DNA from: an uncultured Methanosarcinaceae archaeon
GTDB lineage: Archaea; Halobacteriota; Methanosarcinia; Methanosarcinales; Methanosarcinaceae
Length of the DNA: 64,000 nt
Direction of reading: 5' to 3'
Assembly (NCBI GenBank): GCA_963833425.1
Contig: CAWHXP010000005.1
Span: 1 to 64,000, forward strand
The position numbers and the translations under genes were made by a program. The notes under the pieces are model-generated. The model had not been told where the DNA came from. It was given only the letters and a program-made list of their open reading frames with translations, and made no database searches. Of this stretch, positions 14,290-64,000 are shown piece by piece (the stretch's first letter is position 1; each line of letters begins with the position of its first letter).

Positions 14290-14499
14290 GAAATTAATGA
14301 CCTAAGCTTAAATTCGATGATTAGATAATTAATTAGTGTTGATATCGGACTTTGGTTTCCGAGGATAAACATTTACATATGAGCAGGTATTTTTAAAGAG
14401 CAATTTTGCTGGAACGAATTTTATATCCTCAACTATGTTTAACAAGAGAAAGTCGCCTTGTGAAGGCATTTCACCAAAAAGGCAGCAATGAGGTATTTC

Positions 14500-47061: not shown

Positions 47062-48198
47062 TTGAAAATGGATGTTTCAGAGAAAAAAAATCTTCAAGGA
47101 GCTAATCTTCAGGGAGCTGATCTTATAGAGGCTAACCTTCAAGAGGCTAACCTTGAAGGAGCTAACCTTGAAGAAGCTAACCTTCGAGGAGCTAACCTTG
47201 AAGAGGCTAACCTTCGAGGAGCTAATCTTTTTTATGCTGATCTCACAGAGGCTAACCTTCAAGGGGCTAACCTTATAGAAGCCAACATTGAAATGGCTAC
47301 ACTACAATTGGCTAAACTTCATTTAGCTAACTTTAAAGGAGCTGATCTTCAAGGAGCTAACCTTCAAGGGGCTGATCTTTATGGAGCTGATCTTCAAGGA
47401 GCTAACCTTCAGGGAGCTAACCTTTATGGAGCTGACCTTCAAGAAGCTAACCTTGGAGGAGCTAAACTTGAAGGAGCCAAACTTGGAGGTGTTAAACTTG
47501 AACGGGCTTACCTTATAGAAGCTAACCTTGAAGGAGCTAACCTTGAAGGGGCTAAACTTGGTGGAGCTAAACTTGAAAGGGCTAAACTTGAAAGAGCTTA
47601 CCTTATAGAAGCTAACCTTCAAGGAGCTGATCTTCAAGGAGCTAGCCTTCAGGAAGCTATCCTTTATGGAGCTGACCTTCAAGAAGCTAACCTTCGAGGA
47701 GCTAACCTTGAAGGAGCCAAACTTAGAGGAGTTAAACTTGAACGGGCTTACCTTATAGAGGCTAACCTTGAAGGAGCTAACCTTGAAGGAGCTAACCTTG
47801 AAGGAGCTAAACTTGGTGGAGCTAAACTTGGTAGAGCTAAACTTGAAAGGGCTAAACTTGAAAGGGCTTATCTTATAGAAGCTAACCTTGAAGGAGCTTA
47901 CCTTATAGAGGCTAACTTTCAATGGGCTAATCTTCAAGGGGCTAACCTTAAAGGGACTTACCTTTTAGGAGCTAACTTTAAAGAAGCTAATCTTGAAGGA
48001 GCTAACCTTGAAGGAGCTAATCTTGAAGGGGCTCATCTTGTAGGAACCAACCTTGAAGGAGCTGACCTTGAAGGAGCTAAGAATTTATCGCTTTTCCAAC
48101 TTTCTAAAGTGAAAACACTTTATAATACAAAACTAGATGAAGATCTTCTCATGCTATTAAAAGAAGAATATCCTGCACTTTTTGAAGAACCTGAATGA
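47062..48198 (+). CDS. Pentapeptide repeat protein
   Basis: More than 60 A(N/D/K/Y)Lxx units encoded by a 15-bp tandem repeat, with a C-terminal cap QLSKVKTLYNTKLD. Confidence 0.95.
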   Translation: MKMDVSEKKNLQGANLQGADLIEANLQEANLEGANLEEANLRGANLEEANLRGANLFYADLTEANLQGANLIEANIEMATLQLAKLHLANFKGADLQGANLQGADLYGADLQGANLQGANLYGADLQEANLGGAKLEGAKLGGVKLERAYLIEANLEGANLEGAKLGGAKLERAKLERAYLIEANLQGADLQGASLQEAILYGADLQEANLRGANLEGAKLRGVKLERAYLIEANLEGANLEGANLEGAKLGGAKLGRAKLERAKLERAYLIEANLEGAYLIEANFQWANLQGANLKGTYLLGANFKEANLEGANLEGANLEGAHLVGTNLEGADLEGAKNLSLFQLSKVKTLYNTKLDEDLLMLLKEEYPALFEEPE

Positions 48199-50070: not shown

Positions 50071-53000
50071 TTAGTCTGATTTCTCAAATGAAAAAAAATG
50101 CATTTTACCAAGAGAATCACCTGCAACAATAGACTCACCATTCGGTGAAATGCAGCAGGCTAGAAACGGACTATCCCCTGTAAAATTAGAGATGATTATC
50201 CCTTGTTCCAGATCCCATACCTTGAGTGTTTTATCGCTGGAAGCTGAAATTGCATACCTTCCATCACGTGTGATTGCAACCGCATTCACCCAATTATCAT
50301 GTCCCTTTAGTGTTGTTTTTTCTTCTCCCCTTTCCAAATTCCATATCTTGAGTGTTTTATCATCGGAAGCTGAAACTGCATACCTTCCATCACACGTGAT
50401 TGCAACTGCATTCACCCGATAATCGTGTCCCTTTAGTGTTGTTTTTTTCTCTTCTCTGTTCCGATCCCATATCTTGAGTGTTTTATCGTCGGAAGCTAAA
50501 ACTGCATATCTTCCATCATGCGTGATTGCAACTGCATTCATCTTAGAAGAATATCCCTTTAGTGTTGCTTTTTCTTCTCCCCTTTCCAGATTCCATACCT
50601 TGAGTGTTCTATCGTAGGAAACTGAAACTGCATACTTTCCATCAGGTGTGATTGCAACTCCACGCACCCGACCATCATGTCCCCTTAGCGTTGTTTTTTC
50701 CTCTCCCTTTTCCAGATCCCATACCTTGAGTGTTTTATCTCCGGAAGCTGAAATCGCATACTTTCCATCACGTGTGATTGCAACTGCATTCACCCAATCA
50801 TCATGTCCCTTTAGTGTTGTTTTTTCCTCTCCCCTTTCCAGATTCCATACCTTGAGTGTTTTATCGCTGGAAGCTGAAACTGCATACTTTCCGTCAGGTG
50901 TGATTGCAACTGCATTCACCCGATAATCATGTCCCTTTAGTGTTATTTTTTCCTCTTCCTTTTCCAGATCCCATACCTTGAGTGTTTTATCGCCGGAAGC
51001 TGAAACTGCACACCTTCCATCACGTGTGATTGCAACTGCATTCACCCGATAATCATGTCCCTTTAGTGTTGTTTTTTCCTTTCCCCTTTCCAAATTCCAT
51101 ACCTTGAGTGTTTTATCTCCGGAAGCTGAAATCGCATACTTTCCATCACGTGTGATTGCAACTGCATTCACCCAATCATCATGTCCCTTTAGTGTTGTTT
51201 TTTCCTCTCCCTTTTCCAGATCCCATACCTTGAGTGTTTTATCTCCGGAAGCTGAAATCGCATACTTTCCATCACGTGTGATTGCAACTGCATTCACCCA
51301 ATCATCATGTCCCTTTAGTGTTGTTTTTTCCTCTCCCTTTTCCAGATCCCATACCTTGAGTGTTTTATCTCCGGAAGCTGAAATCGCATACTTTCCATCA
51401 CGTGTGATTGCAACTGCATTCACCCAATCATCATGTCCCTTTAGTGTTGTTTTTTCCTCTCCCCTTTCCAGATTCCATACCTTGAGTGTTTTATCGCTGG
51501 AAGCTGAAATCGCATACTTTCCATCACGTGTGATTGCAACTGCATTCACCCAATCATCATGTCCCTTTAGTGTTGTTTTTTCCTCTCCCTTTTCCAGATC
51601 CCATACCTTGAGTGTTTTATCATCGGAAGCTGAAATCGCATACTTTCCATCACGTGTGATTGCAACTGCATTCACCCAATCATCATGTCCCTTTAGTGTT
51701 GTTTTTTCCTCTCCCATTTGCAAATTCCATATCTTGAGTGTTTTATCGCTGGAAGCTGAAATCGCATACTTTCCATCACGTGTGATTGCAACTGCATTCA
51801 CCCAATCATCATGTCCGTCAAGAGTTCTAATCAACGATCCTCCTGGTGATTTCAAGGAACAAGTTCTTGGAAGTAATCTGATACCATCTTGACATTCACA
51901 TGCTTGACCTAGTAATGTTTGTATCCCCTCTTCGTGAAAACTAAGGAGACGTCCTAGAAGTTGTCCTGCAAGCTGAGTTTCATTTTTTATTAAAGCATTA
52001 TATGAAAGTTTAATTGCACTTTGTACAAGCCTTATTTCAGTATCATCGAGTAGGTAATCGTAATCATGGATAAGAGAATTTATGTTAGGTATTTTGATAC
52101 CCGTTTTGTCATTTCTAACGGTCACATGCTCCAATTTGGTGTGCATCCATTCAAAGTTTAAAAGAAGCATATGAAGTTCTTCTTTTCTTCCAGCTTCTTT
52201 CATGTGGTATGCAAGATGCTCGAAGAAGTACCCATCATTAGGGCCCGTACTCCACTTATTTTTACAATCTTTAGGATATGCTTCTAGCAACTGATTGTGA
52301 AGGCTTGTTAAATCACGTGTTGTAGCTCTCAGGTAATCAAGTTGCAGGTCATGAAGAGATATAAAGCGATGAGGTGCTTCACCATCTAGTCGCAGAAGAG
52401 ACATCTCTTTCAATTTAGATATCAATTTCCCAGAATTGCGCTTTTTTAAATTTCCAGTATGTGCCCAAAAAATCGCAATTGTAGCTTCAGGTACAGGTTC
52501 ATCTGTAGGAAAAATCGCCAGTTCCTGATAACGCTTTACTGCATCTGAATCTTCACTTGAAAGAAAGTCGAGACTGACTTTAAATGCTTTCATCACATTG
52601 GAATTTGGATAGTTTGGCAATTGAGCTTCAATAAATTCAAGATCAGCTTCTTGTAAAGCCTCCAAAATATCTAACCATGATATTCCACTTTTAGCCATCG
52701 CTCCACACATGGATAGAGCGAGTGGCAGGTATCCACATTCCCTTGCCACTCCTTTTGCTTCCGATGGCAATAAGTTTACATCCTTATCATACCAATTTGC
52801 TAGAAGCTTCAAAGCTTCAAGTTCGCTGAATGTTTTAATCTTGTGTTCCTGAGCTCCAAGTGAGGTAACAACATTATTGTTTCTTGTGGTAATAAGCAGT
52901 TTACACATTTTACCTAAAGCATTAACAAAAGGCACTGCATCTTGAACTTTCCAAACGTCGTCAAGTATAATGAGGCATGTTTTATTAGAAAGTACCTTTG

Positions 53001-53973
53001 AAAGACTCGCTTCAGCTTCCTTTTGGCTGCTGTAATTTGCAGGATCATCGCCAAATTCTCTACCGACTAACTTCAAGCCCCCTATAAGATCAGGATTCTC
53101 TAAACCTACAGTAACCCAGAATATCCCATCATGAAAAGCGTCGCGAGCTTCTCTACTTTGGGCAAGGGCTGTGGATAATACGGATTTTCCCATTCCTCCC
53201 ATACCTTGAAGTGAGTTTATCTGCTTTGCAGATGTGATTGCTGCAGATTTTGTGAAATCAGCCAGCATCAACTCTTTTATTTTCTTAAGATCTTCTGTTC
53301 GAGATAAATAATGAGGAGGTAGTGTAGGTACTCCAACAATTGGAGCAAGATGCTCAGATAGAAACTCAAAAATACTGAGGTCAAATGAATGCTCTTTGCA
53401 AACATTTAATATCGAATCAATAGGACTAAAGCCACCTGACAATATGCCTGTAGCTGTCTCCTTATAAACAACTATTCCTACGATATCGTTTAGTTTAGCG
53501 TCGAAAACCGGAGTACCGCTAAATCCTCCTTCAATATTATACCCGATAAACTTAGAAACGTCAATCTGAACGAAGTCAGGATAAGCCCTCCCTCTCCCTA
53601 ATACTGAGACCCACTCTGCTTTATCTCCATATGGAAAACCGCATACTTTGAGTTCTCGATCCCAGAAATCATCTGTGAGCATAAGCTTTCCTATACTGGC
53701 ACATGAAGGAGCTTCATCTTCAAGCTTAAGAATAGCAAAGCCATATTCTGTGTTTTGCGACCAAAAGAAAATGTGAGATTTTAGAACTTTATTTGGCTCA
53801 TCAAGATAAAAAGTCAGATATATCTCATCGCCTATTTTAGCATTTGGCGAAACATCATTGACTACGTGCCTGCAAGTAAGTATCCACCTTTTCCCAATTA
53901 GAAATCCAGCACCTTGTGCGTCCCTGTTCTTATCTAGAACTTTGACTATTGAGGACTCTGGTAAATGATTCAT
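50071..53973 (-). CDS. Apaf-1-like NLR: trypsin-like protease, NB-ARC, helical domain, 14 WD40 repeats
   Basis: GAGFLIG..WILTCRHVV and GGFSGTPV (trypsin). GMGGMGKS, LIILDDVW, LLITTRN, CGYLPLAL and LHDLQLDYL (NB-ARC with MHD-like motif). Thirteen near-identical WD repeats plus one divergent. Confidence 0.95.
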   Translation of the reverse strand: MNHLPESSIVKVLDKNRDAQGAGFLIGKRWILTCRHVVNDVSPNAKIGDEIYLTFYLDEPNKVLKSHIFFWSQNTEYGFAILKLEDEAPSCASIGKLMLTDDFWDRELKVCGFPYGDKAEWVSVLGRGRAYPDFVQIDVSKFIGYNIEGGFSGTPVFDAKLNDIVGIVVYKETATGILSGGFSPIDSILNVCKEHSFDLSIFEFLSEHLAPIVGVPTLPPHYLSRTEDLKKIKELMLADFTKSAAITSAKQINSLQGMGGMGKSVLSTALAQSREARDAFHDGIFWVTVGLENPDLIGGLKLVGREFGDDPANYSSQKEAEASLSKVLSNKTCLIILDDVWKVQDAVPFVNALGKMCKLLITTRNNNVVTSLGAQEHKIKTFSELEALKLLANWYDKDVNLLPSEAKGVARECGYLPLALSMCGAMAKSGISWLDILEALQEADLEFIEAQLPNYPNSNVMKAFKVSLDFLSSEDSDAVKRYQELAIFPTDEPVPEATIAIFWAHTGNLKKRNSGKLISKLKEMSLLRLDGEAPHRFISLHDLQLDYLRATTRDLTSLHNQLLEAYPKDCKNKWSTGPNDGYFFEHLAYHMKEAGRKEELHMLLLNFEWMHTKLEHVTVRNDKTGIKIPNINSLIHDYDYLLDDTEIRLVQSAIKLSYNALIKNETQLAGQLLGRLLSFHEEGIQTLLGQACECQDGIRLLPRTCSLKSPGGSLIRTLDGHDDWVNAVAITRDGKYAISASSDKTLKIWNLQMGEEKTTLKGHDDWVNAVAITRDGKYAISASDDKTLKVWDLEKGEEKTTLKGHDDWVNAVAITRDGKYAISASSDKTLKVWNLERGEEKTTLKGHDDWVNAVAITRDGKYAISASGDKTLKVWDLEKGEEKTTLKGHDDWVNAVAITRDGKYAISASGDKTLKVWDLEKGEEKTTLKGHDDWVNAVAITRDGKYAISASGDKTLKVWNLERGKEKTTLKGHDYRVNAVAITRDGRCAVSASGDKTLKVWDLEKEEEKITLKGHDYRVNAVAITPDGKYAVSASSDKTLKVWNLERGEEKTTLKGHDDWVNAVAITRDGKYAISASGDKTLKVWDLEKGEEKTTLRGHDGRVRGVAITPDGKYAVSVSYDRTLKVWNLERGEEKATLKGYSSKMNAVAITHDGRYAVLASDDKTLKIWDRNREEKKTTLKGHDYRVNAVAITCDGRYAVSASDDKTLKIWNLERGEEKTTLKGHDNWVNAVAITRDGRYAISASSDKTLKVWDLEQGIIISNFTGDSPFLACCISPNGESIVAGDSLGKMHFFSFEKSD
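50205..51835 (-). repeat. 126-bp highly conserved tandem repeats encoding WD40 blades
   Basis: Thirteen units, several identical at nucleotide level (e.g. 51104-51480). Confidence 0.95.
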
Positions 53974-53982
53974 TCAAAAGCC

Positions 53983-54309
53983 TCATGCCGTTTTCCAAGA
54001 AAGAGTGACCTTAAAATTTGCCTCAACGCTTGTAGTTGCAATAAAGGCTCCAGCTTGCGCATTCATTATGATCCCAAACTCAACCCCTATACAATCAGGC
54101 TTACTGCTTAGACTCTTTAGTCTCTGTACAATAACGTCTGCAGCAGGCCTGATGACATCCAGAGCTTTTTCAAATTCTTTTGTTGCTTCTTCAGGCACTC
54201 CTGACGGTCTAGAAACAGGAGTCCGACCTCTTTCGGATTCTGTTTCCTCTACTTCAATTAAAACAGCTCCACCCTCTTCAAGGTTATATTTCACAAGTTT
54301 CTTAGTCAC
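53983..54309 (-). CDS. Trypsin-co-occurring domain protein Trypco1 (CU044_2847-like)
   Basis: GGAVLIEV...FEKALDVIRPAA...PD.I.VEFGI...A.AGAFIA....EANFKVTLSW. Lies 9 bp upstream of the trypsin-NLR gene. Confidence 0.88.
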   Translation of the reverse strand: MTKKLVKYNLEEGGAVLIEVEETESERGRTPVSRPSGVPEEATKEFEKALDVIRPAADVIVQRLKSLSSKPDCIGVEFGIIMNAQAGAFIATTSVEANFKVTLSWKTA

Positions 54310-55773
54310 TATGCTTTCCTCCTACAAAAAATTAGTAATGAAGATTCGATTCATATCGTCCACAATGTAAGTAATTTGCATATTGTTACTTTTAAATAAG
54401 TCACTTATTTTTGTTTTTTAGCCTATTTATAATAATTTCTTGAAATAAACTATTTTTTAAGAGTTAGGGTCTCTAAACATTTAAATTGCAGAAAATTTCA
54501 GATGAAGATTTGTGATAAAAAGGGCCTGTTAAAGATTTGGAGGACAAAGATTGGAAGAGGGGTAAAAACTGGAATTTAGAGTAAAAGACTTAAAAGCTCA
54601 GCATTCGGCGGCTCAGGTGACTCTAGCTCCTAACTGATATTATATCAGTTGGAACAGGCATAACTAAGAAACTTCAAACGGGGGAGGTAGAAAAATGAAT
54701 TGACATCTCGCCCATAACTTTAGTTTAGGAATTATGTGCTTGAAGTTTAAAATTAAAATTATTATATGGTGCAATTGACAAATTTTATTCAGACCGTTCA
54801 AGTTTTAATTCTATTGATTTCAGTTCAACCATTTAAGTCATAATTAAAAAATAGCAGGGAAAGATAAAATATATTGGCACCCCGCGCAATGAGAACTTGA
54901 AAATATAACAAACATGCATAGTAATTGATGATACAAATGCGGAATCTTATCAATCAAAAAGCTATAGAATCACCAGGAGCAAAGGAGCCTGGTTAATGTT
55001 TTGAACTTTTTCTATGCGTGCATCACCAAGATTTCATTAAGTTATTTATTAATCATGCGTACACAATCTCCTTTTTAGCTCAAATTTAATTGAATGGATC
55101 ACTATTTAATAGGTAATTATGTTCATTTAAGTTTGATATAACAAACAGTAACTAACGGAGTTATTGGGTATTTATTTGAAGCTTTTTCGCTAATTACAGT
55201 CTTTTTATGCGAATTAATCAATTTAATTCGACATTATTCAGCATTTTAATGAATAAATTGAATTAATTTTTGGGATTTATTTCCACTTTAATCTAAAATT
55301 GTTATTTATTTGATCATTATTTATGCCGAAATTATAGAGTTACAAGAGACTATTTAAGCTTCAAATCCTAAAAAAAACAAGTTTAATAGTAAGAATTATA
55401 GCTTAATTGTAGTAAGGAAAGGTAAATATTTATTGCGTAAGTTATTTACACCCAGTTTACCCATCACTAATTATCCACAGAGTAAAATTCTTTTGTGAGT
55501 TCGCCGTTTGATGTCCTATAATCATAGAGATATGGTCCGTAAGTTCTAATTGATTTTGTATTTCAAGATCATAATCAAGAGCACACTGCTTTAGGTATAG
55601 TTGCTCTAAAGTGTAATAATGATGCACAATATAGCCAATCTTCCCATATCAATTTTATGAAATTTTCAAACTTTAATATTTGTATCGGACATAGGGTTAT
55701 TTATCAATTTACAGAAAATGACACAAAAAGATTAAACACCTACTCATTAACTAAACTATAAAGAATCTTTTAA

Positions 55774-56142
55774 TTAAATAAATGATTCAGTGTGGCTATC
55801 TCTAATTCTAATCTTTTCTAAAATTTTCATTCTAATCTTTTCTGCTTCATTTTCAGTTATACATGGGATATTCTGCTCCACTACTCGAGATTGCCCTTCT
55901 GCAGATAAATACAGGAACTCTCGAGCATGTGAGCTTAAACTTCTCTGATCTTCAATAACAAGCCTATAAACTGGCCGACTGGTATATTGCACCTTAGGAT
56001 TAAAAAAATATTCAAAATGTGCGTGTAGATCCCCTTCCCGGTAAAGAGAGAACAGATTTTTGCAATCCCAAGGTAACTCCTTGCCTATTTTTTGCCTTGC
56101 TTCAAGAGCTTGTAATCTTTTTTTCATTGATACTGTTACCAT
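55774..56142 (-). CDS. Hypothetical protein (mobile-element-like)
   Basis: 122-aa ORF starting MKKRLQALEARQ, GTGAAG ribosome-binding site, co-oriented with neighbours. Confidence 0.55.
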   Translation of the reverse strand: MVTVSMKKRLQALEARQKIGKELPWDCKNLFSLYREGDLHAHFEYFFNPKVQYTSRPVYRLVIEDQRSLSSHAREFLYLSAEGQSRVVEQNIPCITENEAEKIRMKILEKIRIRDSHTESFI

Positions 56143-56299
56143 ATCTTCACTTCACATTTTCAATATTGTATTTTTCCCTAATCTGGCTATAATTCCATTA
56201 TACTTACCAGAATATTAATGGAATCTTGGCATAAATGGTAATTAAACTTCCATATTATACAGCATACGACTCTCCGATCGAGCTTCCAGAATAATAATT

Positions 56300-56611
56300 T
56301 CATTCTACTCTTGTAAATAACGGAGTGTCCGAAAGAGCATAACCATTCTGTGCCTGATAATTTTCCAGAGCTTCAAGTCTCTTCTGAAAATCACCAATAT
56401 CCAAATCTTTCATTATCGCATTTTGGACCTGTAAAGCCTGAATGAAAACTCTGATATAGGCCAGCTTTAAGCTATCTCCTTCCTGAACTCTGAAACGTTT
56501 TGCCTTCAATCTCTTTTGAAGCTGTTCAATTAATTCTGAATTTGCACTTAACAGTGACTCTCGTGTTAGTAATTTAAGAGTAGCTATTGGGGTACTAACA
56601 GTGTTCTTCAT
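56300..56611 (-). CDS. Hypothetical helical protein (mobile-element-like)
   Basis: 103-aa ORF ending in coiled-coil DFQKRLEALE. Confidence 0.6.
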   Translation of the reverse strand: MKNTVSTPIATLKLLTRESLLSANSELIEQLQKRLKAKRFRVQEGDSLKLAYIRVFIQALQVQNAIMKDLDIGDFQKRLEALENYQAQNGYALSDTPLFTRVE

Positions 56612-57354
56612 TAAATCCCTTTATAACGTTTTGTCGGTTAATTGTCAAGAATTTATAGTAATATATTGTATTTATAAATATATACATTTTAGTGCATGTA
56701 TCGTAAATAAATGTTATACTACTGTTTCATCTTCTAATCACATCTTTGATCTTCTGAATATACATTAATATGTAGACCTAAATTATAAAAACAAATTCTT
56801 ATAATTAGTCTAAAGTATAATTTTTAATGAGTTAATGATAAACTATTACTTATGCGATTTAAACTTCACCACTGGCTTCTAATGCATTCTTATGACACTT
56901 AATCATTTACAATCCCCCTTAGACACAAATTATGAAGTTTTGTAAAATTTCCCCAAAAATTATTATAGAAAATCCACTTATCATGCAATTTACCGGTTAG
57001 CTTACTATTTACGAAAATTATAAACTGAAACAGATAAGTAAGCTCTTGAATCTAAAAAGATCACTACTAAACTATTTATTAGTCCAAATTTTAATAATCC
57101 TAATGAAATCGCTTATACTTGAGTTTGTACTCTAAGTGAGTAAGTCATATTAAAGAAAAGTCAGTCTACACTTGCTGATATAGAAGATTGGGACTTGATA
57201 AGAGATTCGATCGGGCTAAAAGGAGTTACTTATAAAAATTGGTTTAAATATCTAATTACAGTTTCACACATTCTTCCGGTCAAATAGCAATAAATGCAAC
57301 CTAACACTTCGTCCCCCTGCAACAGTAATAGTATTATTTGGGGAACTCTCTTGC

Positions 57355-57696
57355 TTAGGAGTGCATTTTTAAGGTGGGGTATCCTTCATAACAGTTATTG
57401 CATAACACAGTCACAGTAGGACTTTTACCCTTTTGTCGGATCGTTTTTATCATTCCACATTTTTCTAACTCGTTCAATGCTGTCGGAAAAGCCCAATCAG
57501 GGATAGGTAAAAGGGAATTTATACCTTTCAAGGTGACTACTAAATTTGTAGATTTTTTAATACCTTTTAAGTGCCAAATGTACATAGCCACCCTATAAGT
57601 ATGCCCAACTGAATTTGAAGGTAGCTTCACAATCCATTCTAAAGGCAATTGGGGTATGAAGTATCCTTTTATTTTATCTCTAGAATTTACTAACAT
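57355..57696 (-). CDS. Small winged-helix DNA-binding protein, putative replication or regulatory protein
   Basis: LPLEWI...VAMYIWHL.GIKKS...ALNELEKCGMIKTIRQKGKSPTVTV, a wHTH recognition helix plus wing. Confidence 0.6.
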   Translation of the reverse strand: MLVNSRDKIKGYFIPQLPLEWIVKLPSNSVGHTYRVAMYIWHLKGIKKSTNLVVTLKGINSLLPIPDWAFPTALNELEKCGMIKTIRQKGKSPTVTVLCNNCYEGYPTLKMHS

Positions 57697-57795
57697 GATT
57701 TTACCCCATCTAATATTATTTCTAAATGATAAGAGTAAATAAATAAGAAATATAAAGAAATATAAGTAGTAAAAACATTATCCGAAGGCTTTAGA

Positions 57796-57881
57796 ATTTA
57801 GCTGTGTAGCTAATTAATTTTAGCTGTAGAGCGAAATATATTTTGCTGTGCAGCTAATTAATATTGCTCTGTAGCTAAATT
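57796..57881. repeat. Four phased palindromic repeats (iteron/operator-like)
   Basis: GCT-N4-AGC cores at 57801, 57823, 57845 and 57866 (spacing 22, 22, 21 bp), consensus TT(A/T)GCT-N4-AGCTAA. Confidence 0.8.
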
Positions 57882-59542
57882 CAAAGTGTAGACAAAACAG
57901 ATTATTGGAACTATTCTGCTTTCAGCTTCCTTCTTCTTTAATTTCTCCTAAAATCTCCATAATCAAATGCCACTTTTCTGCACCCTTCTCATCTATATAC
58001 CTATCAGGATAAAGATCGTATTAAAAATACCTTTGATAATTACATGAACAAGTTCAAACCTTATTTATCAAAAACCATTTGAAGCATCTAGAGCAAAAAA
58101 GCCCTGGTGGGGATTTTGGTGATGATAGCTACCTTAAGACGCTGAATATATCAATAGTGGATTTTTATTCTATTAAAATTTGATTGAGTTTAGAAAGTCA
58201 AGATTAACGAATTAATGACTCATTAGATTCTCGATTCACAGCAAACTTCGTTAGAATTTGTTGTCTTATTTCATTTATTTCTGCCATAAAGTCTTACAGA
58301 CTGAAGCCAGATATACTCAGGACTGTCTAATACCTTCAGGCAAAATATATTGCAAATCCAGGTTTATGAAACCGATCTCTGAACTCACAAATGAAATGTA
58401 CCTGGATTATGTAGGCTCATGATAATTAATAAAATGACATTTTTCCGCTTCAGGAAAGCTCTGGCTCAAATATGAACGAGTATAGGGCGATTCGAGGCAT
58501 TTTCTTGAGAAGTTAATTAAAACTATTAACTAGATGGAAAAAAACCCCATGATAGGGCTTAAAATAAGCCAGTTTTTGTCAATCCGTTAGCAAAACATGG
58601 GACAAAGTCAGCAATTTAGTCCAAACTAATCAAAAAGTAAATGAAATCTCATGTTGATTTAGAGAATCTGGAGAAGCCTGTTAGTCAACCATCACCTATT
58701 TGCTCTCGTAAACCCTAAGTAAGTCCAAGATATAGCTAATAATAATTTTTATTACTTTATTAATATAATAGGATATTGAACGCATTTAGTTTAAATTGTA
58801 TTAGATATACTTCTTTATCTGAAATAAAGATGATCCATTTATATAAAAACTAAACTATAACTCCAGATTAAAAAGTGGTTATTACAGATTTTTCATCCCT
58901 GTGACTACTAATCAGGTCCAAAATTAACATTTTATGCAACTATATTTCAAAAATTAAGATCAAACATAATCAAGGACCGTTATTTTCGGTTCGGTCAATG
59001 GGATGCGGTGACAAAAAACAAATTAGTTCATTACTTCCAGTTTTGGATAATAAGCCTAATAACAAAAATAAGTGGAGCGGAAGGATCAAAAACTTTATTT
59101 GCTCAATGTTGTGACAATACTTCTCATTGAATTTAGCTATTATCATAGACATCCCAATACCTTGCAGTAGACTTCGTACCTTTAAATCATAAATTTTAAT
59201 AAATGGTAGTAAAGTCTTCCTTATAAAAAATAAATATAATTTATAAAAATCAGATAAAATAAATATTGAATTTGTTCTATTGCCTGAAAATAAGGCAATC
59301 ACATAGTCAATAAAATATATTTTAAAGTTGTAAAATAAATTTTTGACTTTCTAAAATTTAGTATCTATTCAGATAAATTTATGTATTTACTTGATTATGT
59401 ACTCAAAATTCCAAAATGGAAATCTTTATTTTATTAGCTAGGGATATCTCATTTATCTTTTATCTCAAAATTTTGATCTTAGAGCTAAAATGGTGAACTG
59501 TTGTGATAAAACCCAACTTTTGTACCAGAAAGCCGGAGAAGT

Positions 59543-59900
59543 TTATTTATTCGAATTTTTTAATTCTTCAAGATTTCTCTCACAAAAATCAATTCGTCTA
59601 AGATCTTCAATTTTTCTATCCATTTTTATTGCCTGTTCATAATACTCAATTGCTTTTATTGTCTCTCCCAAATCTCTATACGCGTTTCCCAGATTACCAA
59701 GGTGAATTCCTTCTGCGTCCCTATTTCCAATTTCTTTAGCAATTTTGAGTGCTTGTTCATAATACCCAATTTCTTTTTTCGTCTCTCTCAGAGCACTGTA
59801 TGCATTCCCTAGATTTCAAAGTTGATTTCCTTCATTAAGTCTATCACCTATTTATCTTGCAATTTTTAGTGACTGTTCAAGATAATTTATTGCTTTCCTC
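59543..59900 (-). pseudogene. C-terminal TPR fragment of an NLR-type gene
   Basis: YYEQALKIAKEIGNRDAEGIHLGNLGNAYRDLGETIKAIEYYEQA...IDFCERNLEELKNSNK*. Confidence 0.8.
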
Positions 59901-60678
59901 CCTACTTATGCTGCTCGGAGTGTTTCTCATCTTTATGTTCTTCACCGGATTTTTTGCTGTCGTTTTGTTGCTCATCTGAGTGTTTCTTCTTAGGAGCCGT
60001 GTAAATACATCCAATTCCCAGAACAACGCGTCCAATCGCCAGTAATATTAAGATTATATAGTTTGGAAACTTTGTCTTCATATTATGCACCTATTTTTAT
60101 ATTTTATAATGCATTATTAATTTATAGATAATTGACTTATTGACTTATTATCTATAATGATTATAGCAAAATGCAAATATTATATAAATACTGCCTATAT
60201 ATACTATATATATTTATATATGAATAAAGTGTTTAGCAAAGGAAAAAATATAAATCCAATAACTCCAAAGATAATTTTACGCATGTAAATAATAAAATAA
60301 GATCTTTTTAATATAAGACTTATGAAGGCTCAACTGCAAAATCTCCTTTAAGTATTTATCGCGTAAATAATGAATAAAAAAGTTGGGAATGATTTTTTTC
60401 TTATTTGTAAGTGGAAAAAATCTGTCTCAGGATGAACTTTAAGAAAAAAATGTGCCAACCTATAGCTAAAAGCAGAATACAAGTTGATTGTCTCTTGATG
60501 ACGTCTGATGTCCTCACGGTTCTAATTTTGTCTTTTGATGCAATTGTAACCAGTGGTGAACAAAAACCCATTAATAATCAAAGTTTAGCTTCGGTAGTAA
60601 AAAGATGGGGGATGGAAGTAATGATCTTACTTAAGACTAACCTTTTCCTTTTTGTTCAGTCTAAGTTGTAATATGATC

Positions 60679-60826
60679 GGTTTTGTTGCAAAAATAATAT
60701 CTCTGCAGTTTACTCATTAATTTTTACCTTTATGTACTATTTTTCTCGGTTATGAGACTAATTAATTTTCAAATTGTGATAAACATATTGATTTTGTAAC
60801 AAAGCCAAATTTTTTGCACCAAAAAT
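60679..60826. mobile_element. Degenerate copy of the 149-bp MITE
   Basis: GGTTTTGTTGCAAAAATAAT start and AAAGCCAAATTTTTTGCACC end, similar length to 14141-14289. Confidence 0.6.
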
Positions 60827-60833
60827 CAGCAAG

Positions 60834-61070
60834 TTTATTTTTTCTAAATTTTTAATTTCTCAAGATTTCTCTCGCAAAAATCAATTAGTCGGGAATCTTC
60901 AATTTCTTTAGCAATTTTGAGTGCCAGTTTATAATATCCAATTGCTTTCTTTGTCCTTCCAAGATCATTGTATATTATTCCCAGATTTCCAAGGCATTTC
61001 CCTTCTCCTTTCTTACCCCCAATTTCTTTAGCAATTTTGAGTGACTGTTCATAATACTCAATTGCTTTTA
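60834..61070 (-). pseudogene. Second C-terminal TPR fragment, paralogous to 59543-59900
   Basis: KAIEYYEQSLKIAKEIGGKKGEGKCLGNLGIIYNDLGRTKKAIGYYKLALKIAKEIED...IDFCERNLEKLKNLEKNK. Confidence 0.8.
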
Positions 61071-61104
61071 TAAGATAGCATCATTATTTTGTAGGAGATA
61101 AACT

Positions 61105-61410
61105 ATGGAGAAAATTGGATTGGTAGAGACGATAGAAGCCTTGCGGTCAGAGTTATCTGCGGCGGTAAAGAAAGCCCAAGGACAAGAGATTCAGTTTCCG
61201 ATAGGTTCAGTACAACTGGAGTTCCAGGTAGGAGTGACATGGGACGCAGAGACTAAGGGTAAAGTCAAGTTCTGGGTATTGGAGTTAGGAGCGAGCGGCA
61301 AATATGCAAACGAATCGGTCCAGAAGGTCACTCTTAATCTTGAAGCCCCAGTGAACACTGAGGGAAATATAGTGAAAGTGACAGAACATTCGCGACAGAG
61401 ACCGAGTTAG
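61105..61410 (+). CDS. Trypsin-co-occurring domain protein Trypco2
   Basis: IGLVETIEALRSEL..A...IQF.IGSVQLEFQV...GKVKFWVLELGASG....VQKVTLNL. Directly upstream of a trypsin gene. Confidence 0.9.
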   Translation: MEKIGLVETIEALRSELSAAVKKAQGQEIQFPIGSVQLEFQVGVTWDAETKGKVKFWVLELGASGKYANESVQKVTLNLEAPVNTEGNIVKVTEHSRQRPS

Positions 61411-61422
61411 GGAGGGTAGATA

Positions 61423-62823
61423 GTGTTAGCAGGGCTGAACAGTCGAGCCGTTGAAGTTATCTATGAAGGGTGTGACGAAAACGGACATTTCTGGGAGGTA
61501 GGTTCTGGGTCCTTCGTTCGCCCTAATCTGGTGCTTACTGCCTCGCACTGTATTCCCGGCCCGGGCAAATTAAGAGTGCGTCTTCTCTACGACGGAAAAA
61601 AGTACCCTGCGACAGTGCGCCTGCAAGCTGACAAAGACAACGCAGATTTAGCAGTACTCGAAGTTTCTAATGTACCAGTGGAAGTCCCTGTTCTACGATT
61701 TGGAGAGGTAAATCGGAATATATCAGGGAAAGTGAAGGAATGTATAGCAATTGGCTTCCCCAGGTTCAAAGATATCGAAGATAAATCTAAGGTACTGCGT
61801 TGCAGTGCCCAAGTCGAGGGGGAGATCCCAACCGGAGAAAATTTTCGCCAGCCCATTCTTACGCTACAGATAACAAACAAGAATCCACGATCACTACCTG
61901 ATAACAAATCGGAATGGGCAGGGATATCTGGGGCAGTAGTATACTCGAGCAATGATACTATCATAGGTGTGATAACTGAGCATCATCTCCCGGAGGGTGA
62001 GAGTGCGTTAAACGTTGTGCCAATTACGGCCATCGATGGTCTAGATGAAGCGGGGAAATGGTGGCAGTTACTAGGTGTGAACCGTCAAGCACTCGTAAGT
62101 CTGCCGAAAATTATAGGCAATGTTACAGGCAAGCTAGCTACTGGGAAATATATCAATCAAATTGTGATAAAAGAGCCATCAGTAGAGGCATTAGTTAAAC
62201 AGATGGACTTTTTAGAACAAAAAGAAGAAAGTTTTGATTTATTTTTAAGCTATTTACACTTAGATGATGAGTTTGTTGACAAATTGTCCTGGTTGCTCGA
62301 AAATATTGCCTACTTAAGGGTATTGCATGACAGATGGATTATTTTGCCTGAAAAATGGCAGCAAGAAATACCTCGTGGATTCGAACTCACAAAATCTTGT
62401 GCAATATGTATCGGAGGGGAAACCCCCGAAGGTTGGTTTAGAGACGAGATTGAACTGGCTATCAGTCACCAAAGTGAAGATAAAGCATTCAGAGTTATTC
62501 CAGTGTTATTGCCCAATGCTCAAGAAATAAGTCTTGATGATTTCCCTGAGTTAAGAACTTTGGTGGACTTTAGGAATGGTTTGGAAGATACTAAAGAATT
62601 GCATCGTCTAGTTTCCGGGATACGCGGTGTGCCGCCAGGAAGAAAGCCTTCGGAAATTGTGATACAAGAACCTGATATTGAACCTGATATTAATAGAGCT
62701 CGTAAGCAATTAAGGATAATTGAACAACTGAGCTTTGAATTTAAGGCTATTTTCTCTCAAAAGCTAGTGGATGAGAGTGTTCGTAAGATAGTAAAAGTAA
62801 ATGTGTTAATGAAAAATAGGTGA
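61423..62823 (+). CDS. Trypsin-like serine protease fused to a TIR domain
   Basis: Intact triad: LVLTASHC, ADLAVL, WAGISGA. TIR motifs FDLFLSY, DRWIILP..W, WFRDEIE and VIPVLLP. Confidence 0.92.
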   Translation: MLAGLNSRAVEVIYEGCDENGHFWEVGSGSFVRPNLVLTASHCIPGPGKLRVRLLYDGKKYPATVRLQADKDNADLAVLEVSNVPVEVPVLRFGEVNRNISGKVKECIAIGFPRFKDIEDKSKVLRCSAQVEGEIPTGENFRQPILTLQITNKNPRSLPDNKSEWAGISGAVVYSSNDTIIGVITEHHLPEGESALNVVPITAIDGLDEAGKWWQLLGVNRQALVSLPKIIGNVTGKLATGKYINQIVIKEPSVEALVKQMDFLEQKEESFDLFLSYLHLDDEFVDKLSWLLENIAYLRVLHDRWIILPEKWQQEIPRGFELTKSCAICIGGETPEGWFRDEIELAISHQSEDKAFRVIPVLLPNAQEISLDDFPELRTLVDFRNGLEDTKELHRLVSGIRGVPPGRKPSEIVIQEPDIEPDINRARKQLRIIEQLSFEFKAIFSQKLVDESVRKIVKVNVLMKNR

Positions 62824-62827
62824 CTCA

Positions 62828-64000
62828 ATGGCAGACACCAAGTACAAGTATGATGTATTTCTGAGCTATTCAAGATCTGATGTGAATTCAGTTGAAAAAG
62901 TTGCGAGCTATCTCAGTGATGCAGGACTGAACGTCTGGTTTGATGAATGGTCACTGGTTCCAGGTCAGCAATGGGAGGCATCTTTAGAGGAAGCTTTTGA
63001 TAGTTCGCTTACAATCGCTGTTTTTGTAGGTCCTTCATCGTTAAGTAATCAGCAACAACTGGAGTTGAAAGAAGTCCTTAATAAGCAGATGAACGGTGCA
63101 GTTCATAGGGTCATACCTATCCTACTTCCTGGATCCAGTATAGATTTTATCCCTTTACCCCTTCGCAAAATATGCGCTTTAGACCTTCGTAAAGGTCTTG
63201 AGACAAAACGCGAGCTAAATGAACTTGTTAAAATGATTACCGAATATAAAACCGTAACCTATGGCACTGGACTAACAACAGGTCGCGATGTTTCCATAGG
63301 TGATGTTACCGGCCAGCTAGCTATTGGGAAATATATCAATCAAATTACTATAAAAGAGCCTTCTGGAAAGGCGTTAGTTGAATTAATAGCTTATCTGGAA
63401 CAAGAGAGAAATAAAGAAGAAAATCTTAAAATTTTAAACAGCTATAATCCTTCTGTCCTTCCTTATTTTGACCCTAGACTAAAAGAATTTGTTACCACAA
63501 ACAGAGTGGAAGAATTAAGCCAAGCTCTCGTATATCTTCAGGATCACAGGCTTTTACTTTTTACTGGATTAGGTGGAGTTGGAAAGACTACTCTTGCAAG
63601 AGCCATTATTGATATAAGACCAGCTAATGTACCTATTCCTTTCTGGTTTGATTTCAGTCAAAATCAGAGTGCCAAACTAGGGGATATTCTCGAAAAACTC
63701 GCAGCATATATGAATTCTCGAGATTTAGTAGGATTCAAAGAGGAAAAACGAGAGCCAGAAAAAAAGGATATTGATAAACTCATAGACAAATTAAATGTAG
63801 GAAACCCAGTATGGCTTATTTTCGACAACTTGGAAACTATAATGGATGACATTTATTTCCAAGATGAATATATAGATCTATTTTTTACTTGTTTGTTTAC
63901 CAACACTTACCAGATAAAGATCATTATAACGAGTAGAACTGTTCCAATGTTAAAAAATGAAGAATGCTTAATTAACGTAATAGAAGGAGATAAACAGAAT
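62828..64000 (+). CDS. TIR plus NB-ARC/STAND NTPase protein, partial (runs off the window; absent from the ORF track)
   Basis: Manual translation is open to the window end: MADTKYKYDVFLSYSRSD...VWFDEWSLVPGQQW...RVIPILLPG (TIR), GLGGVGKTTLA (Walker A), LIFDNLE (Walker B), IIITSR. Confidence 0.93.
   Translation, partial: MADTKYKYDVFLSYSRSDVNSVEKVASYLSDAGLNVWFDEWSLVPGQQWEASLEEAFDSSLTIAVFVGPSSLSNQQQLELKEVLNKQMNGAVHRVIPILLPGSSIDFIPLPLRKICALDLRKGLETKRELNELVKMITEYKTVTYGTGLTTGRDVSIGDVTGQLAIGKYINQITIKEPSGKALVELIAYLEQERNKEENLKILNSYNPSVLPYFDPRLKEFVTTNRVEELSQALVYLQDHRLLLFTGLGGVGKTTLARAIIDIRPANVPIPFWFDFSQNQSAKLGDILEKLAAYMNSRDLVGFKEEKREPEKKDIDKLIDKLNVGNPVWLIFDNLETIMDDIYFQDEYIDLFFTCLFTNTYQIKIIITSRTVPMLKNEECLINVIEGDKQN

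What the first reader, a model, noticed from the sequence alone, without database searches (positions are those of the whole stretch)
61105..64000. Trypco2 / trypsin-TIR / TIR-NB-ARC operon: candidate archaeal NLR signalling system coupling a sensor to a protease
Seen: three tightly packed co-directional genes (gaps of 12 and 4 bp). They encode Trypco2, a trypsin with an intact His-Asp-Ser triad fused to a TIR domain (WFRDEIE keeps the Glu used by NADase TIRs), and a TIR-NB-ARC protein. Known: Trypco domains co-occur with trypsins in prokaryotic conflict systems, and TIR-STAND proteins are antiviral or cell-death sensors. Inference: the oligomerised NLR recruits the separate protease through TIR-TIR contacts and the shared module in the next finding, like an inflammasome recruiting its effector protease. 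I do not recall this three-gene arrangement being characterised in archaea.
Basis: partly seen in the sequence, partly recalled or inferred. Interest (0 to 1): 0.88.

Follow-up and report, generated by a model that had tools for sequence, protein, structure and literature searches.

The report
Split protease–TIR–STAND defence operon, archaeal
An archaeon carries a three-gene immune-type operon in which a small pore-toxin precursor, a protease fused to a TIR domain, and a TIR-bearing sensor ATPase appear to form a split version of a bacterial cell-suicide system whose fused form was characterised in 2025.

Summary
Three co-directional ORFs with gaps of 12 and 4 bp encode Trypco2 (g1), a trypsin–TIR protein (g2) and a TIR–STAND protein cut by the window end (g3). 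The catalytic His/Asp/Ser and both TIR glutamates are present.

The kind is known. Trypco2 ("Pepco") is a published pore-forming pro-toxin that the trypsin domain of an adjacent STAND sensor cleaves (Evans 2025 preprint). All 12 related bacterial loci have Trypco2 directly upstream, and 9 of them show the trypsin fused to a STAND NTPase.

The new part is the split. The protease sits on its own protein, and both partners carry a TIR plus a roughly 45-aa module. That module is the conserved N-terminus of an nSTAND6–TPR family found in named Methanosarcinales; 60 of 120 relatives start with it. One relative (P0016) is the fused form, trypsin–module–STAND. One (P0195) is a stand-alone module–TIR protein.

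The module copies share codons far beyond chance (17 of 22, p = 8e-5). The module matches no Pfam family. Its glycine-rich half is conserved yet modelled as disordered.

Recruitment of g2 by g3 remains inferred, because the complex predictor was unavailable. Verdict: a new variant of a known kind, of moderate interest.

The parts
61090..61104 (+). SD-like motif (AGGAG) 7 nt before the g1 ATG. Further upstream lie minus-strand TPR remnants, not an obvious promoter.
   Evidence: Sequence read. The sigma-70-type scan is not informative for an archaeon: 7 sites found against 9.8 expected.
61105..61410 (+). g1: Trypco2/Pepco-family small protein (101 aa). It has an N-terminal conserved helix region, the Trypco2 domain at aa 4-80, and a 21-aa C-terminal tail (aa 81-101).
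   Evidence: Pfam PF19631, E 1.5e-26. It is 81% identical to the Trypco2 of Ktedonobacteraceae locus L001. L6, R14, A20, F31, E39, E60, Q73 and L79 are invariant across 13 sequences.
61423..62109 (+). g2 aa 1-229: HtrA/DegP-like S1 serine protease domain with H42, D75 and S169.
   Evidence: Trypsin_2, E 8.7e-11. The triad columns are invariant. AF2 pLDDT is 85-97. Foldseek top hits are DegQ, DegP, HtrA1 and DegS, E about 1e-11. GC is 0.48.
62110..62232 (+). g2 aa 230-270: shared module, copy 1. It has a Gly/Asn/Gln/Ile-rich stretch followed by a helix.
   Evidence: 60% identical to the g3 copy. 17 of 22 identical residues use identical codons against 8.1 expected, p = 8e-5. No Pfam hit. pLDDT is below 50. 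GC drops to 0.33 at this junction.
62233..62637 (+). g2 aa 271-405: TIR domain ('type A') with W338 and E342.
   Evidence: TIR_2, E 1.6e-13. The same TIR plus linker motif recurs in P0007, P0015, P0025, P0028, P0030 and P0034. It is also fused directly to this STAND family in P0131, P0136 and P0151.
62638..62823 (+). g2 aa 406-466: two-helix C-terminal tail, then the stop codon.
   Evidence: Helices at 423-440 and 446-465. No Pfam hit. The homologues P0007, P0015 and P0025 end at the same point, so this is a natural terminus.
62828..63247 (+). g3 aa 1-140: TIR domain ('type B') with E79. The Trp of the W-x-x-x-E motif is replaced by Gln.
   Evidence: TIR_2, E 5.1e-22. phmmer hit to AbTIR 8g83, E 2.3e-6, with the Glu aligned. 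Foldseek hits include AbTir, BtTir and the MAL filament.
63248..63442 (+). g3 aa 141-205: shared module, copy 2, in full-length form. The core is aa 156-199.
   Evidence: 77% identical to the N-terminal module of P0179. Residues 145-174 have pLDDT below 50, while helix 180-194 has pLDDT 86-90.
63443..64000 (+). g3 aa 206-391: N-terminal half of a STAND NTPase (Walker A GGVGKT, K253). The gene runs off the window.
   Evidence: NB-ARC, NPHP3_N and nSTAND6 hits. 76% identical to P0059 and 68% to P0016. Full-length relatives continue into TPR repeats. Foldseek top hit is the plant TIR-NLR RPP1.

Best explanation
This is a three-gene abortive-infection-type operon. It is a split variant of the Pepco(Trypco2)-trypsin-STAND systems.

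Proposed mechanism:
1. g3 is the sensor. It is a TIR-module-nSTAND6 NTPase, and its relatives end in TPR repeats. On binding an invader-derived ligand it oligomerises. This step is inferred from the family.
2. Oligomerisation clusters g3's N-terminal TIR and module. These capture g2 (protease-module-TIR) through module-module and/or TIR-TIR contacts. This step is inferred and untested.
3. The HtrA-like protease domains of g2 are activated by being brought together. They remove the C-terminal tail of g1. [quoted passage not shown] This step rests on homology to SsPepco/SsAvs4.
4. The clustered TIR domains both keep the catalytic-type Glu. They probably add NAD+ hydrolysis as a second effector. 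This step is inferred.

Evolutionary origin: g2 is a mosaic. A Ktedonobacteria/Actinobacteria-type trypsin that travels with Trypco2 is joined to a module-TIR unit drawn from the host lineage's own STAND family.
For: One system, intact genes:
- Domain calls and catalytic residues are confirmed.
- The genes are tightly coupled, with SD motifs, different reading frames and natural termini.

Conserved linkage in relatives:
- Trypco2 lies directly upstream of the trypsin gene in 12 of 12 related loci.
- The trypsin is fused to a NACHT, NB-ARC or NPHP3_N NTPase in 9 of 12.
- P0016 is the fused form: trypsin-module-STAND-TPR.

Published function of the Trypco2 family:
- Evans et al. 2025 (sections read) show that Pepco (= Trypco1/2) is a nonameric or decameric beta-barrel.
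- The trypsin domain of SsAvs4 cleaves it on sensing a phage portal. Toxicity needs the catalytic Ser.

The module behaves like an adaptor:
- 60 of 120 g3 relatives start with it and have no enzymatic N-domain. Another 24 carry it behind a different N-terminal region.
- P0195 is a stand-alone module-TIR protein. It is colinear with g2 aa 231-363 (E 9e-14).
- The two window copies share identical codons at 17 of 22 identical residues, against 8.1 expected (p = 8e-5).
- The Gly-rich half is conserved yet modelled as disordered in both proteins.

Other support:
- The g2-type TIR also occurs fused directly to this STAND family, in P0131, P0136 and P0151.
- The protease is HtrA-like, a class I recall as activated by oligomerisation (fold match).
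- g3's best structural match is the TIR-NLR RPP1 resistosome.
Against: - No physical or predicted g2-g3 interaction was obtained.
- No second example of the full trypsin-module-TIR protein was found. Only g2 itself covers 100% of the query among 56 hits. g2 is the only hit with an internal module among 19 hits in 1.84 billion representatives.
- At protein level, g3's module ranks about 4th among the 72 non-self hits to g2's module (61% over 46 aa, against 64% over 39 aa for three others). There is no exclusive pairing signal.
- Only one stand-alone module-bearing effector (P0195) was found. That is few if the module is a general adaptor.
- The Pepco cleavage site (Ile97|Arg98 in SsPepco) cannot be placed. 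Neither g1 nor the 12 related Trypco2 proteins has an 'IR' in the tail, and g1's I88 is not conserved.
- PADLOC and NCBIfam recognise no named defence system here.
- The sensor end of g3 is not in the window and was not recovered.
- Whether a Pepco pore works in an archaeal membrane is unknown.
Confidence: 0.55

Rival explanations
1. Two independent systems lie side by side. System (a) is Trypco2 plus trypsin-TIR, a self-contained two-gene module in which g2's TIR and tail act as its own regulator or sensor. System (b) is a separate TIR-STAND-TPR NADase sensor. On this view the shared module in g2 is a relic of the recombination that built g2 and has no adaptor role.
For: - Independent trypsin-TIR fusions without any module exist. 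P0007 and P0015 use a different trypsin with the same TIR and tail.
- g3-like TIR-STAND proteins occur as single proteins, for example P0060.
- g2's module lacks the N-terminal third of the family module and shows no exclusive similarity to g3's copy at protein level.
- There is a sharp GC break at the trypsin/module junction, 0.48 to 0.33, which marks a recombination joint.
Against: - The 4-bp spacing with an SD motif overlapping the g2 stop implies co-translation.
- In 9 of 12 relatives the trypsin needs a STAND in cis, and g2 has no sensor domain of its own.
- The excess of identical codons between the two module copies (p = 8e-5) points to recent copying or concerted evolution, not to an old decaying relic.
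- The module is kept as an intact open segment.
Confidence: 0.2
2. Coupling is by a small molecule. Activated g3 TIR makes an NAD-derived signal, which switches on the g2 protease. This would resemble the reported Thoeris type in which TIR signalling activates a caspase-like protease.
For: - Both TIRs keep the catalytic-type Glu.
- A precedent for TIR signalling to a protease exists in print (Rousset et al. 2025). I saw it only as a reference-list entry and one sentence in PMC13581612.
Against: - g2 has no recognised nucleotide-sensor domain such as SLOG, SAVED or Macro. Pfam finds only Trypsin_2 and TIR_2, and nothing for the module or the tail.
- The fused relatives (P0016 and 9 of 12 loci) need no diffusible signal.
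Confidence: 0.08
3. The locus is a non-functional or decaying mosaic in a region rich in pseudogenes and STAND paralogues. It would be a one-off product of recombination among paralogues that selection has not maintained.
For: - The architecture is a singleton in the searches made.
- Decayed TPR-coding fragments abut g1 on the opposite strand.
- The 54-61 kb region is ORF-poor with GC 0.31.
- Other genes in the window appear split, namely trpS and pheS.
Against: - All three ORFs are intact, with natural termini, intact catalytic residues and SD motifs.
- g1 is 81% identical to a bacterial orthologue across its full length.
Confidence: 0.1

Closest known systems
SsPepco-SsAvs4 of Streptomyces subrutilus (Evans et al. 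2025, bioRxiv 10.1101/2025.11.14.688446; abstract, introduction passages and the Pepco section read)
   Same: - A small Trypco-family gene lies immediately upstream of a trypsin-like protease that works with a STAND sensor.
- The catalytic Ser is present.
- A short C-terminal tail follows the Trypco domain.
- The bacterial relatives fetched here have the same two-gene layout.
   Different: - Here the protease is on a separate protein rather than being the N-terminal domain of the STAND.
- Both proteins carry a TIR domain and a shared module.
- The host is an archaeon, and the paper's main text never mentions archaea or TIR.
- The I97|R98 cleavage site has no recognisable counterpart.
- No Avs4 model matches g3 or its relatives.
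EAD-coupled conflict systems (Kaur, Burroughs, Iyer, Aravind 2020 eLife PMC7159879, section 30 read; Kaur et al. 2021 PMC8195603, passages; Dore et al. 2024 PMC10907252, passages)
   Same: - A small non-enzymatic domain sits on the core NTPase, with a second copy on a trypsin-bearing protein encoded next door.
- The same effector is directly fused to the NTPase in other genomes.
- The predicted logic is homotypic recruitment, as with Death and CARD domains.
   Different: - The module matches no Pfam family at E <= 10 when each copy is scanned on its own, and no EAD model appears among the whole-protein hits at E <= 0.1.
- It lies internally in both proteins.
- Half of it is a Gly/Asn/Gln-rich segment predicted to be disordered.
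- Both partners also carry TIR domains.
NLR-associated bacterial amyloid signalling motifs, BASS (Dyrka et al. 2020, bioRxiv 10.1101/2020.01.06.895854; passages read)
   Same: - A short G/N/Q- and hydrophobic-rich motif is shared between an effector protein and the NOD-proximal N-terminus of the adjacent collinear NLR gene.
- 'All-in-one' fusions exist as counterparts.
- TIR2 is listed among the alternative effectors.
- Two motif pairs are reported from Methanosarcinales.
   Different: - BASS motifs sit at the effector C-terminus and the NLR N-terminus. Here the motif is internal in g2, and a TIR precedes it in g3.
- A helical half is attached to the motif here.
- No amyloid propensity or match to BASS1-10 could be computed here, because the motif logos are figures I could not see.
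TIR-NLR receptors such as plant RPP1, and bacterial NADase TIRs such as AbTir
   Same: - g3 has TIR followed by an NB-ARC-type NTPase.
- Foldseek's top hit is the RPP1 tetramer (E 4.5e-7), followed by AbTir, BtTir and MAL TIRs.
- The catalytic-type Glu is retained.
   Different: - The sensor repeats are expected to be TPR, not LRR (relatives).
- An extra module lies between the TIR and the NTPase.
- The Trp of W-x-x-x-E is Gln in g3.
- A protease partner is present.

Membership tests
Trypco2 / Pepco (g1) | Match to Pfam PF19631 above the gathering score | tested here: met
   92.9 bits against a cutoff of 24.2, E 1.5e-26, covering profile positions 1-77 of 78.
Trypco2 / Pepco (g1) | Encoded immediately next to a trypsin-like peptidase gene on the same strand | tested here: met
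   A 12-bp gap to g2. The same layout is seen in 12 of 12 related loci.
Trypco2 / Pepco (g1) | Conserved Ile immediately before the protease cleavage site in a charged, Pro-containing C-terminal tail (I97|R98 in SsPepco) | tested here: inconclusive
   A 21-aa tail is present (aa 81-101). No 'IR' is found, and g1's I88 is not conserved. An I/V column lies at g1 V75.
Trypco2 / Pepco (g1) | SDS-resistant nonameric or decameric beta-barrel that becomes a pore after cleavage | not testable with these tools
   No solved relative was found by sequence (best E 0.13). No oligomer prediction was available.
S1 (chymotrypsin-fold) serine protease, HtrA-like (g2 N-domain) | His-Asp-Ser triad in order, and the fold | tested here: met
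   H42, D75 and S169 are invariant in 10 sequences. Trypsin_2 scores 43.2 bits against a cutoff of 27.6. Foldseek hits to DegQ, DegP, HtrA1 and DegS have E about 1e-11.
NADase-type TIR domain (g2 and g3) | TIR fold plus the conserved catalytic Glu (W-x-x-x-E context in AbTir; residue role recalled) | tested here: met
   TIR_2 scores are above cutoff in both proteins. g3 E79 aligns with the AbTIR Glu. g2 has W338 and E342 at the same columns. g3 has Gln in place of the Trp. Enzyme activity was not tested.
STAND NTPase, nSTAND6/NB-ARC type (g3) | Family HMM match with Walker A, and C-terminal sensor repeats | tested here: inconclusive
   NB-ARC scores 28.1 (cutoff 23.5), NPHP3_N 32.0 (cutoff 24.8) and nSTAND6 26.7 (cutoff 27.7). 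Walker A GGVGKT is present. The repeats are not in the window; relatives at 51-76% identity carry TPRs.
Named antiviral STANDs Avs1-4 (PADLOC, NCBIfam) | Whole-protein match to an Avs model | tested here: not met
   Only the protease part of g2 touches Avs1b: PADLOC 24.5 bits, and NCBIfam 12.3 bits against a cutoff of 1500. The full-length relatives P0060, P0059, P0070 and P0016 match no Avs model as whole proteins.
Effector-associated domain (EAD) coupling (Kaur 2020) | The same small non-enzymatic domain on the core NTPase and on an effector encoded in the adjacent gene | tested here: met
   60% identity over 50 aa between g2 and g3. These are the only two copies in the window.
Effector-associated domain (EAD) coupling (Kaur 2020) | Adjacent copies are closer to each other than to copies elsewhere | tested here: inconclusive
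   At protein level, g3 ranks about 4th among the 72 non-self hits. At DNA level, 17 of 22 identical residues use identical codons against 8.1 expected, p = 8e-5. DNA of other family members was not available for comparison.
Effector-associated domain (EAD) coupling (Kaur 2020) | Match to one of the catalogued EAD families | tested here: not met
   Scanned on its own at E <= 10, each module copy matches no Pfam family, apart from a DUF7149 hit at chance level, E 0.11. The whole-protein scans at E <= 0.1 list no EAD model. That the EAD families are held in Pfam is recalled.
Amyloid signalling motif pair (BASS, Dyrka 2020) | A motif of about 25 aa at the effector C-terminus and the NLR N-terminus in adjacent collinear genes | tested here: not met
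   The genes are collinear and 4 bp apart, but the motif is internal in g2 (aa 230-270) and preceded by a TIR in g3. It is N-terminal in 60 of 120 relatives.
Amyloid signalling motif pair (BASS, Dyrka 2020) | Amyloid or prion-like templating | not testable with these tools
   The only indirect sign is a conserved Gly/Asn/Gln/Ile-rich segment with pLDDT below 50 in both models.

The most novel reading that the evidence does not exclude
The conserved module at the N-terminus of this nSTAND6-TPR family is an uncatalogued assembly or templating adaptor. It could work like an EAD or like an amyloid signalling motif. Archaeal NLR-like sensors would use it to recruit separately encoded effectors. g2 would then be a case in which one adaptor recruits a protease (releasing a Pepco pore) and a TIR at once. 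That would make this an archaeal 'inflammasome' with two death effectors.
Probability: 0.2. Interest if true: 0.75.

Novelty: new variant of a known kind. Interest (0 to 1): 0.55.

Why it matters
Protease-activated pore toxins under STAND control have so far been shown only in bacteria and only with the protease fused to the sensor. This locus offers three things:

1. An archaeal example.
2. A natural split of sensor and protease. It makes the recruitment step testable by ordinary genetics (module deletion, TIR surface mutants, Walker A mutant).
3. A conserved but unannotated N-terminal module on a STAND family that includes named Methanosarcinales members.

If the module proves to be an adaptor, it would explain how the 60 of 120 relatives that start with the module and show no enzymatic N-terminal domain signal. 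It would also extend the adaptor logic of animal apoptosomes and inflammasomes, and of fungal and bacterial NLR motif pairs, to archaea. If it does not, the locus is still a useful record of how defence genes are rebuilt by domain shuffling.

Tried and rejected
1. Genome scan with the 21-sequence alignment A1 failed because it had no conserved stretch. I repeated it with the 10-sequence trypsin alignment A2.
2. The window's own genome is not in genome contigs. No archaeal locus was returned, so archaeal synteny could not be surveyed.
3. Full-length g3 was not recovered by the 'longer' search. The best hit is 76% identical over 64% of the query.
4. The module gave nothing against Pfam or the protein atlas.
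5. The word-indexed module search at 215-685 aa gave only 3 STAND fragments among 24 candidates.
6. The exhaustive phmmer search gave 19 hits. Six are giant repeat proteins (Big_13, DUF11, YDG, cadherin-like, HA repeats). I treat these as beta-strand-repeat look-alikes, not relatives.
7. I first read the GC fall from g1 (0.47) to g3 (0.37) as a sign of foreign origin. I rejected this because housekeeping genes in the window have GC 0.41-0.49. What remains is a sharp break inside g2.
8. Exclusive protein-level pairing of the two module copies was rejected.
9. Placing the Pepco cleavage site by homology was not possible.
10. No solved Pepco structure was found by sequence. The g2 TIR has no PDB hit by phmmer.
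11. The plasmid search found only distant Streptomyces trypsin genes (27-33% identity) and one Caballeronia TIR (35%). No transfer vehicle was identified.
12. Complex prediction (g3 aa 1-215 with g2 aa 225-466) found the queue full. It was not sent on, and was declared unavailable. There is no verdict.
14. The 'broken single gene' reading of g2/g3 was rejected. The frames differ, the termini are natural, and an SD motif precedes g3.

Full report
**1. Observation**

g1 is 61105-61410 (101 aa), g2 is 61423-62823 (466 aa, GTG start) and g3 is 62828-64000 (391 aa, open at the window end). The gaps are 12 and 4 bp.
- Pfam confirms Trypco2 for g1 (E 1.5e-26). It confirms Trypsin_2 plus TIR_2 for g2, and TIR_2 plus a STAND NTPase for g3. 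For the NTPase, NB-ARC and NPHP3_N score above their cutoffs and nSTAND6 falls one bit below.
- H42, D75 and S169 of g2 are invariant among 10 trypsin relatives.
- g3's E79 aligns with the Glu of the AbTIR NADase motif, and g2's W338...E342 falls on the same columns. That this Glu is catalytic is recalled, not taken from a tool.
- Each gene is preceded by an SD-like motif. The g2 stop overlaps AGGTGA five bases before the g3 ATG.
- g2 ends where its TIR homologues end, and g2 and g3 are in different frames. So these are intact, coupled genes, not one broken gene.
- The window is archaeal: archaeal RpoD, TrpRS and PheRS-alpha, and a Hel308-like helicase.
- The named relatives of g3 come from Methanolobus, Methanosarcina and a Halobacteriota MAG. 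This makes Methanosarcinales plausible but not shown.

**2. What the parts are**

*Trypsin and Trypco2 relatives*
- The near-length search with g2 gave 56 hits. Only g2 itself covers the whole query.
- The trypsin half recurs fused to NACHT, NB-ARC or AAA_16 NTPases, and to FHA, TPR and FGE-sulfatase domains.
- The TIR half, with its conserved linker and two-helix tail, recurs behind another trypsin (P0007, P0015) and in other contexts.
- The single genome scan returned 12 loci, all bacterial: one Ktedonobacteraceae and eleven Actinomycetota.
- In 12 of 12 loci a Trypco2 gene lies directly upstream on the same strand.
- In 9 of 12 the trypsin ORF also has a STAND NTPase domain, followed by TPR or WD40 repeats in seven of the nine. 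In L006 the WD40 repeats lie in a separate overlapping ORF, and for L012 no repeat domain was listed.
- The other three are less clear. L002's hit list is filled with WD40 models. L011 shows only Trypsin_2. L010 is fragmented. None of the lists shown includes a TIR.
- g1 is 81% identical to the Ktedonobacteraceae Trypco2.

*The shared module*
- The stretch shared by g2 and g3 is 60% identical over 50 aa, against 32% for the two TIRs.
- It is the conserved N-terminal signature of g3's STAND family. Of the 120 relatives listed, 60 begin with it and have Walker A near residue 110-117.
- Another 24 carry it behind a different N-terminal region, and 36 lack it.
- P0016 is trypsin-module-STAND-TPR in one chain. 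It aligns with g2 aa 1-277 (48%) and g3 aa 148-391 (68%).
- P0131, P0136 and P0151 carry the g2-type TIR fused directly to this STAND.
- An exhaustive phmmer search with the 56-aa module found 19 hits in 1.84 billion representatives. Eleven are short or partial proteins carrying the module at their N-terminus; six of the seven scanned show STAND NTPase domains. One is g2, the only hit with the module internal.
- Six are giant repeat proteins that I regard as look-alikes.
- One is P0195, a 270-aa protein made of the module followed by a ThsB-like TIR with no NTPase. P0195 is colinear with g2 aa 231-363 (E 9e-14).
- g2 therefore reads as trypsin + [module-TIR].
- The composition changes abruptly at that joint, from GC 0.48 (GC3 0.44) to GC 0.33 (GC3 0.27).
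- The two module copies use identical codons at 17 of 22 identical residues, against 8.1 expected from the window's codon usage (p = 8e-5). This indicates recent copying or concerted evolution.
- At protein level, however, g3's copy is only about the 4th closest among the 72 non-self hits to g2's module.

*Structure models*
- The protease of g2 has pLDDT 85-97. The TIR and NTPase of g3 are also confident.
- The Gly/Asn/Gln/Ile-rich half of the module is below pLDDT 50 in both proteins.
- Its helical half is confident in g3 (aa 180-194) and runs on into the NTPase's N-terminal helices.
- Foldseek places the protease with HtrA, DegP and DegS.
- It places g3 with the plant TIR-NLR RPP1 and with bacterial NADase TIRs.

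**3. How it most likely works**

- Evans et al. 2025 show that Pepco, their name for Trypco1/2, is a pre-assembled nonameric or decameric beta-barrel.
- The trypsin domain of the adjacent SsAvs4 removes its C-terminal tail after Ile97 once a phage portal is sensed. This turns the barrel into a lethal pore, and the catalytic Ser is required.
- By homology, g1 is the terminal effector and g2's protease is its activator.
- In relatives the protease is covalently part of the STAND. Here it is not, so it must be brought to the sensor.
- The module on both proteins, the TIR on both proteins and the 4-bp coupling make recruitment of g2 by oligomerised g3 the simplest reading.
- Clustered TIRs with the Glu retained may add NAD+ depletion.
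- What is shown: gene order, domains, catalytic residues, the fused and stand-alone counterparts, and the module's distribution.
- What rests on a published homologue: Pepco cleavage and pore formation.
- What is only inferred: g2-g3 binding, the trigger, and NADase activity.
- The complex predictor never accepted the job, so there is no verdict on binding.

**4. Comparison with what is known**

- The logic is that of Pepco-trypsin-STAND systems and of the 'EAD principle'. It also resembles NLR/effector pairs that share a short amyloid-type motif. Those include TIR2 effectors and two Methanosarcinales pairs.
- On membership, g1 is a Trypco2 family member.
- g3 is a STAND of the nSTAND6/NB-ARC type, but no named Avs model matches it or its full-length relatives.
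- The module meets the architectural EAD criteria but matches no Pfam family: nothing at E <= 10 when scanned alone and no EAD model among the whole-protein hits at E <= 0.1.
- The module fails the positional criterion of BASS pairs.
- The Pepco cleavage site cannot be mapped.

**5. Novelty**

- I found nothing in print on a Trypco2 / trypsin-TIR / TIR-STAND operon or on Pepco in archaea.
- 'Trypco2' occurs in 8 held papers, 4 distinct works.
- The search 'Pepco' + pore-forming + protease + Avs returns only the Evans preprint.
- The search 'Methanosarcina' + TIR domain + STAND + defense returns 5 papers, none of which I opened for this beyond Kaur 2020.
- The Evans main text has no mention of archaea or TIR. 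Kaur 2020 notes only a few archaeal occurrences of these systems.
- Supplementary tables of these papers were not seen and could list such loci.
- I rate the locus a new variant of a known kind.

**6. Context**

- Seven kilobases away, on the other strand, the window holds a canonical system. It consists of Trypco1 (53983-54309, E 1.1e-25) and, 9 nt downstream, a 1300-aa protein.
- That protein is Trypsin_2 - NB-ARC - Apaf-1-like WHD/helical - 13 x WD40. Its trypsin is unrelated in sequence to g2's.
- A further TPR protein with weak, sub-cutoff NTPase hits lies at 22742-25828.
- Decayed TPR-coding fragments of the g3 family abut g1 on the minus strand.
- The region is thus a STAND-rich, recombining neighbourhood. 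This fits both the mosaic origin of g2 and the residual possibility that the arrangement is a recent one-off.

**7. Verdict**

- The best explanation has confidence 0.55.
- Interest is 0.55.

Noticed in passing
window 50071-54309 (-): A second, canonical system. Trypco1 (53983-54309, PF19493, E 1.1e-25) lies 9 nt upstream of a 1300-aa all-in-one protein made of Trypsin_2, NB-ARC, Apaf-1-like WHD/helical region and 13 WD40 repeats. Its trypsin shows no BLAST similarity to g2's (E 0.44). So this archaeon carries both Trypco1 and Trypco2 systems within 10 kb.
   Followed up: yes
window 59594-59899 and 60889-61068 (-): TPR-coding remnants, 52-64% identical to the TPR units of g3's relatives P0059 and P0060, with no intact ORF. 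This looks like a decayed STAND-TPR paralogue on the opposite strand, ending 37 nt before the g1 start. The 50-nt direct repeat at 60900 and 61020 corresponds to two successive TPR units.
   Followed up: partly
window 22742-25828 (-): A further TPR-rich gene (1028 aa). It has only weak N-terminal NTPase hits, all below cutoff (NB-ARC 18.3 bits, cutoff 23.5), and twelve TPR_12 units. It scores E 2.3e-99 against the FxSxx_TPR model, over the TPR region only. It carries no copy of the module.
   Followed up: partly
window 14488-15979 and 16164-17532 (+): The tryptophan-tRNA ligase gene appears as two overlapping ORFs (14488-15303 and 15245-15979). The PheRS-alpha gene appears as two ORFs (16164-16748 and 16780-17532). 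These could be frameshifts, assembly errors or in-frame stops. Only 32 ORFs of 120 aa or more occur in 64 kb.
   Followed up: no
window 54400-61000: A low-GC (0.31), ORF-poor stretch between the two Trypco systems. Its small minus-strand ORFs (55774-56142, 56300-56611, 57355-57696) match no NCBIfam or Pfam family.
   Followed up: partly
g2 aa 271-295 vs g3 aa 8-32 (window 62233-62307 vs 62849-62923): The first 25 codons of the two TIR domains share identical codons at 8 of 9 identical residues, against 3.7 expected (p = 0.002). A later TIR block shows none (1 of 10). This may be a local gene-conversion tract. It is unexplained.
   Followed up: no
relatives P0059 and P0195 (not in the window): P0059 is the closest relative of g3's NTPase (76% identity). 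It starts with the module and ends in a ThsA-like SIR2 region (aa 767-1016, E 1.5e-18), so effectors in this family can also be C-terminal. P0195 is a stand-alone module plus ThsB-like TIR protein.
   Followed up: partly
window 38712-39137 (-) and 47062-48198 (+): A DUF772 transposase fragment (E 6e-14) and a 378-aa pentapeptide-repeat protein.
   Followed up: no
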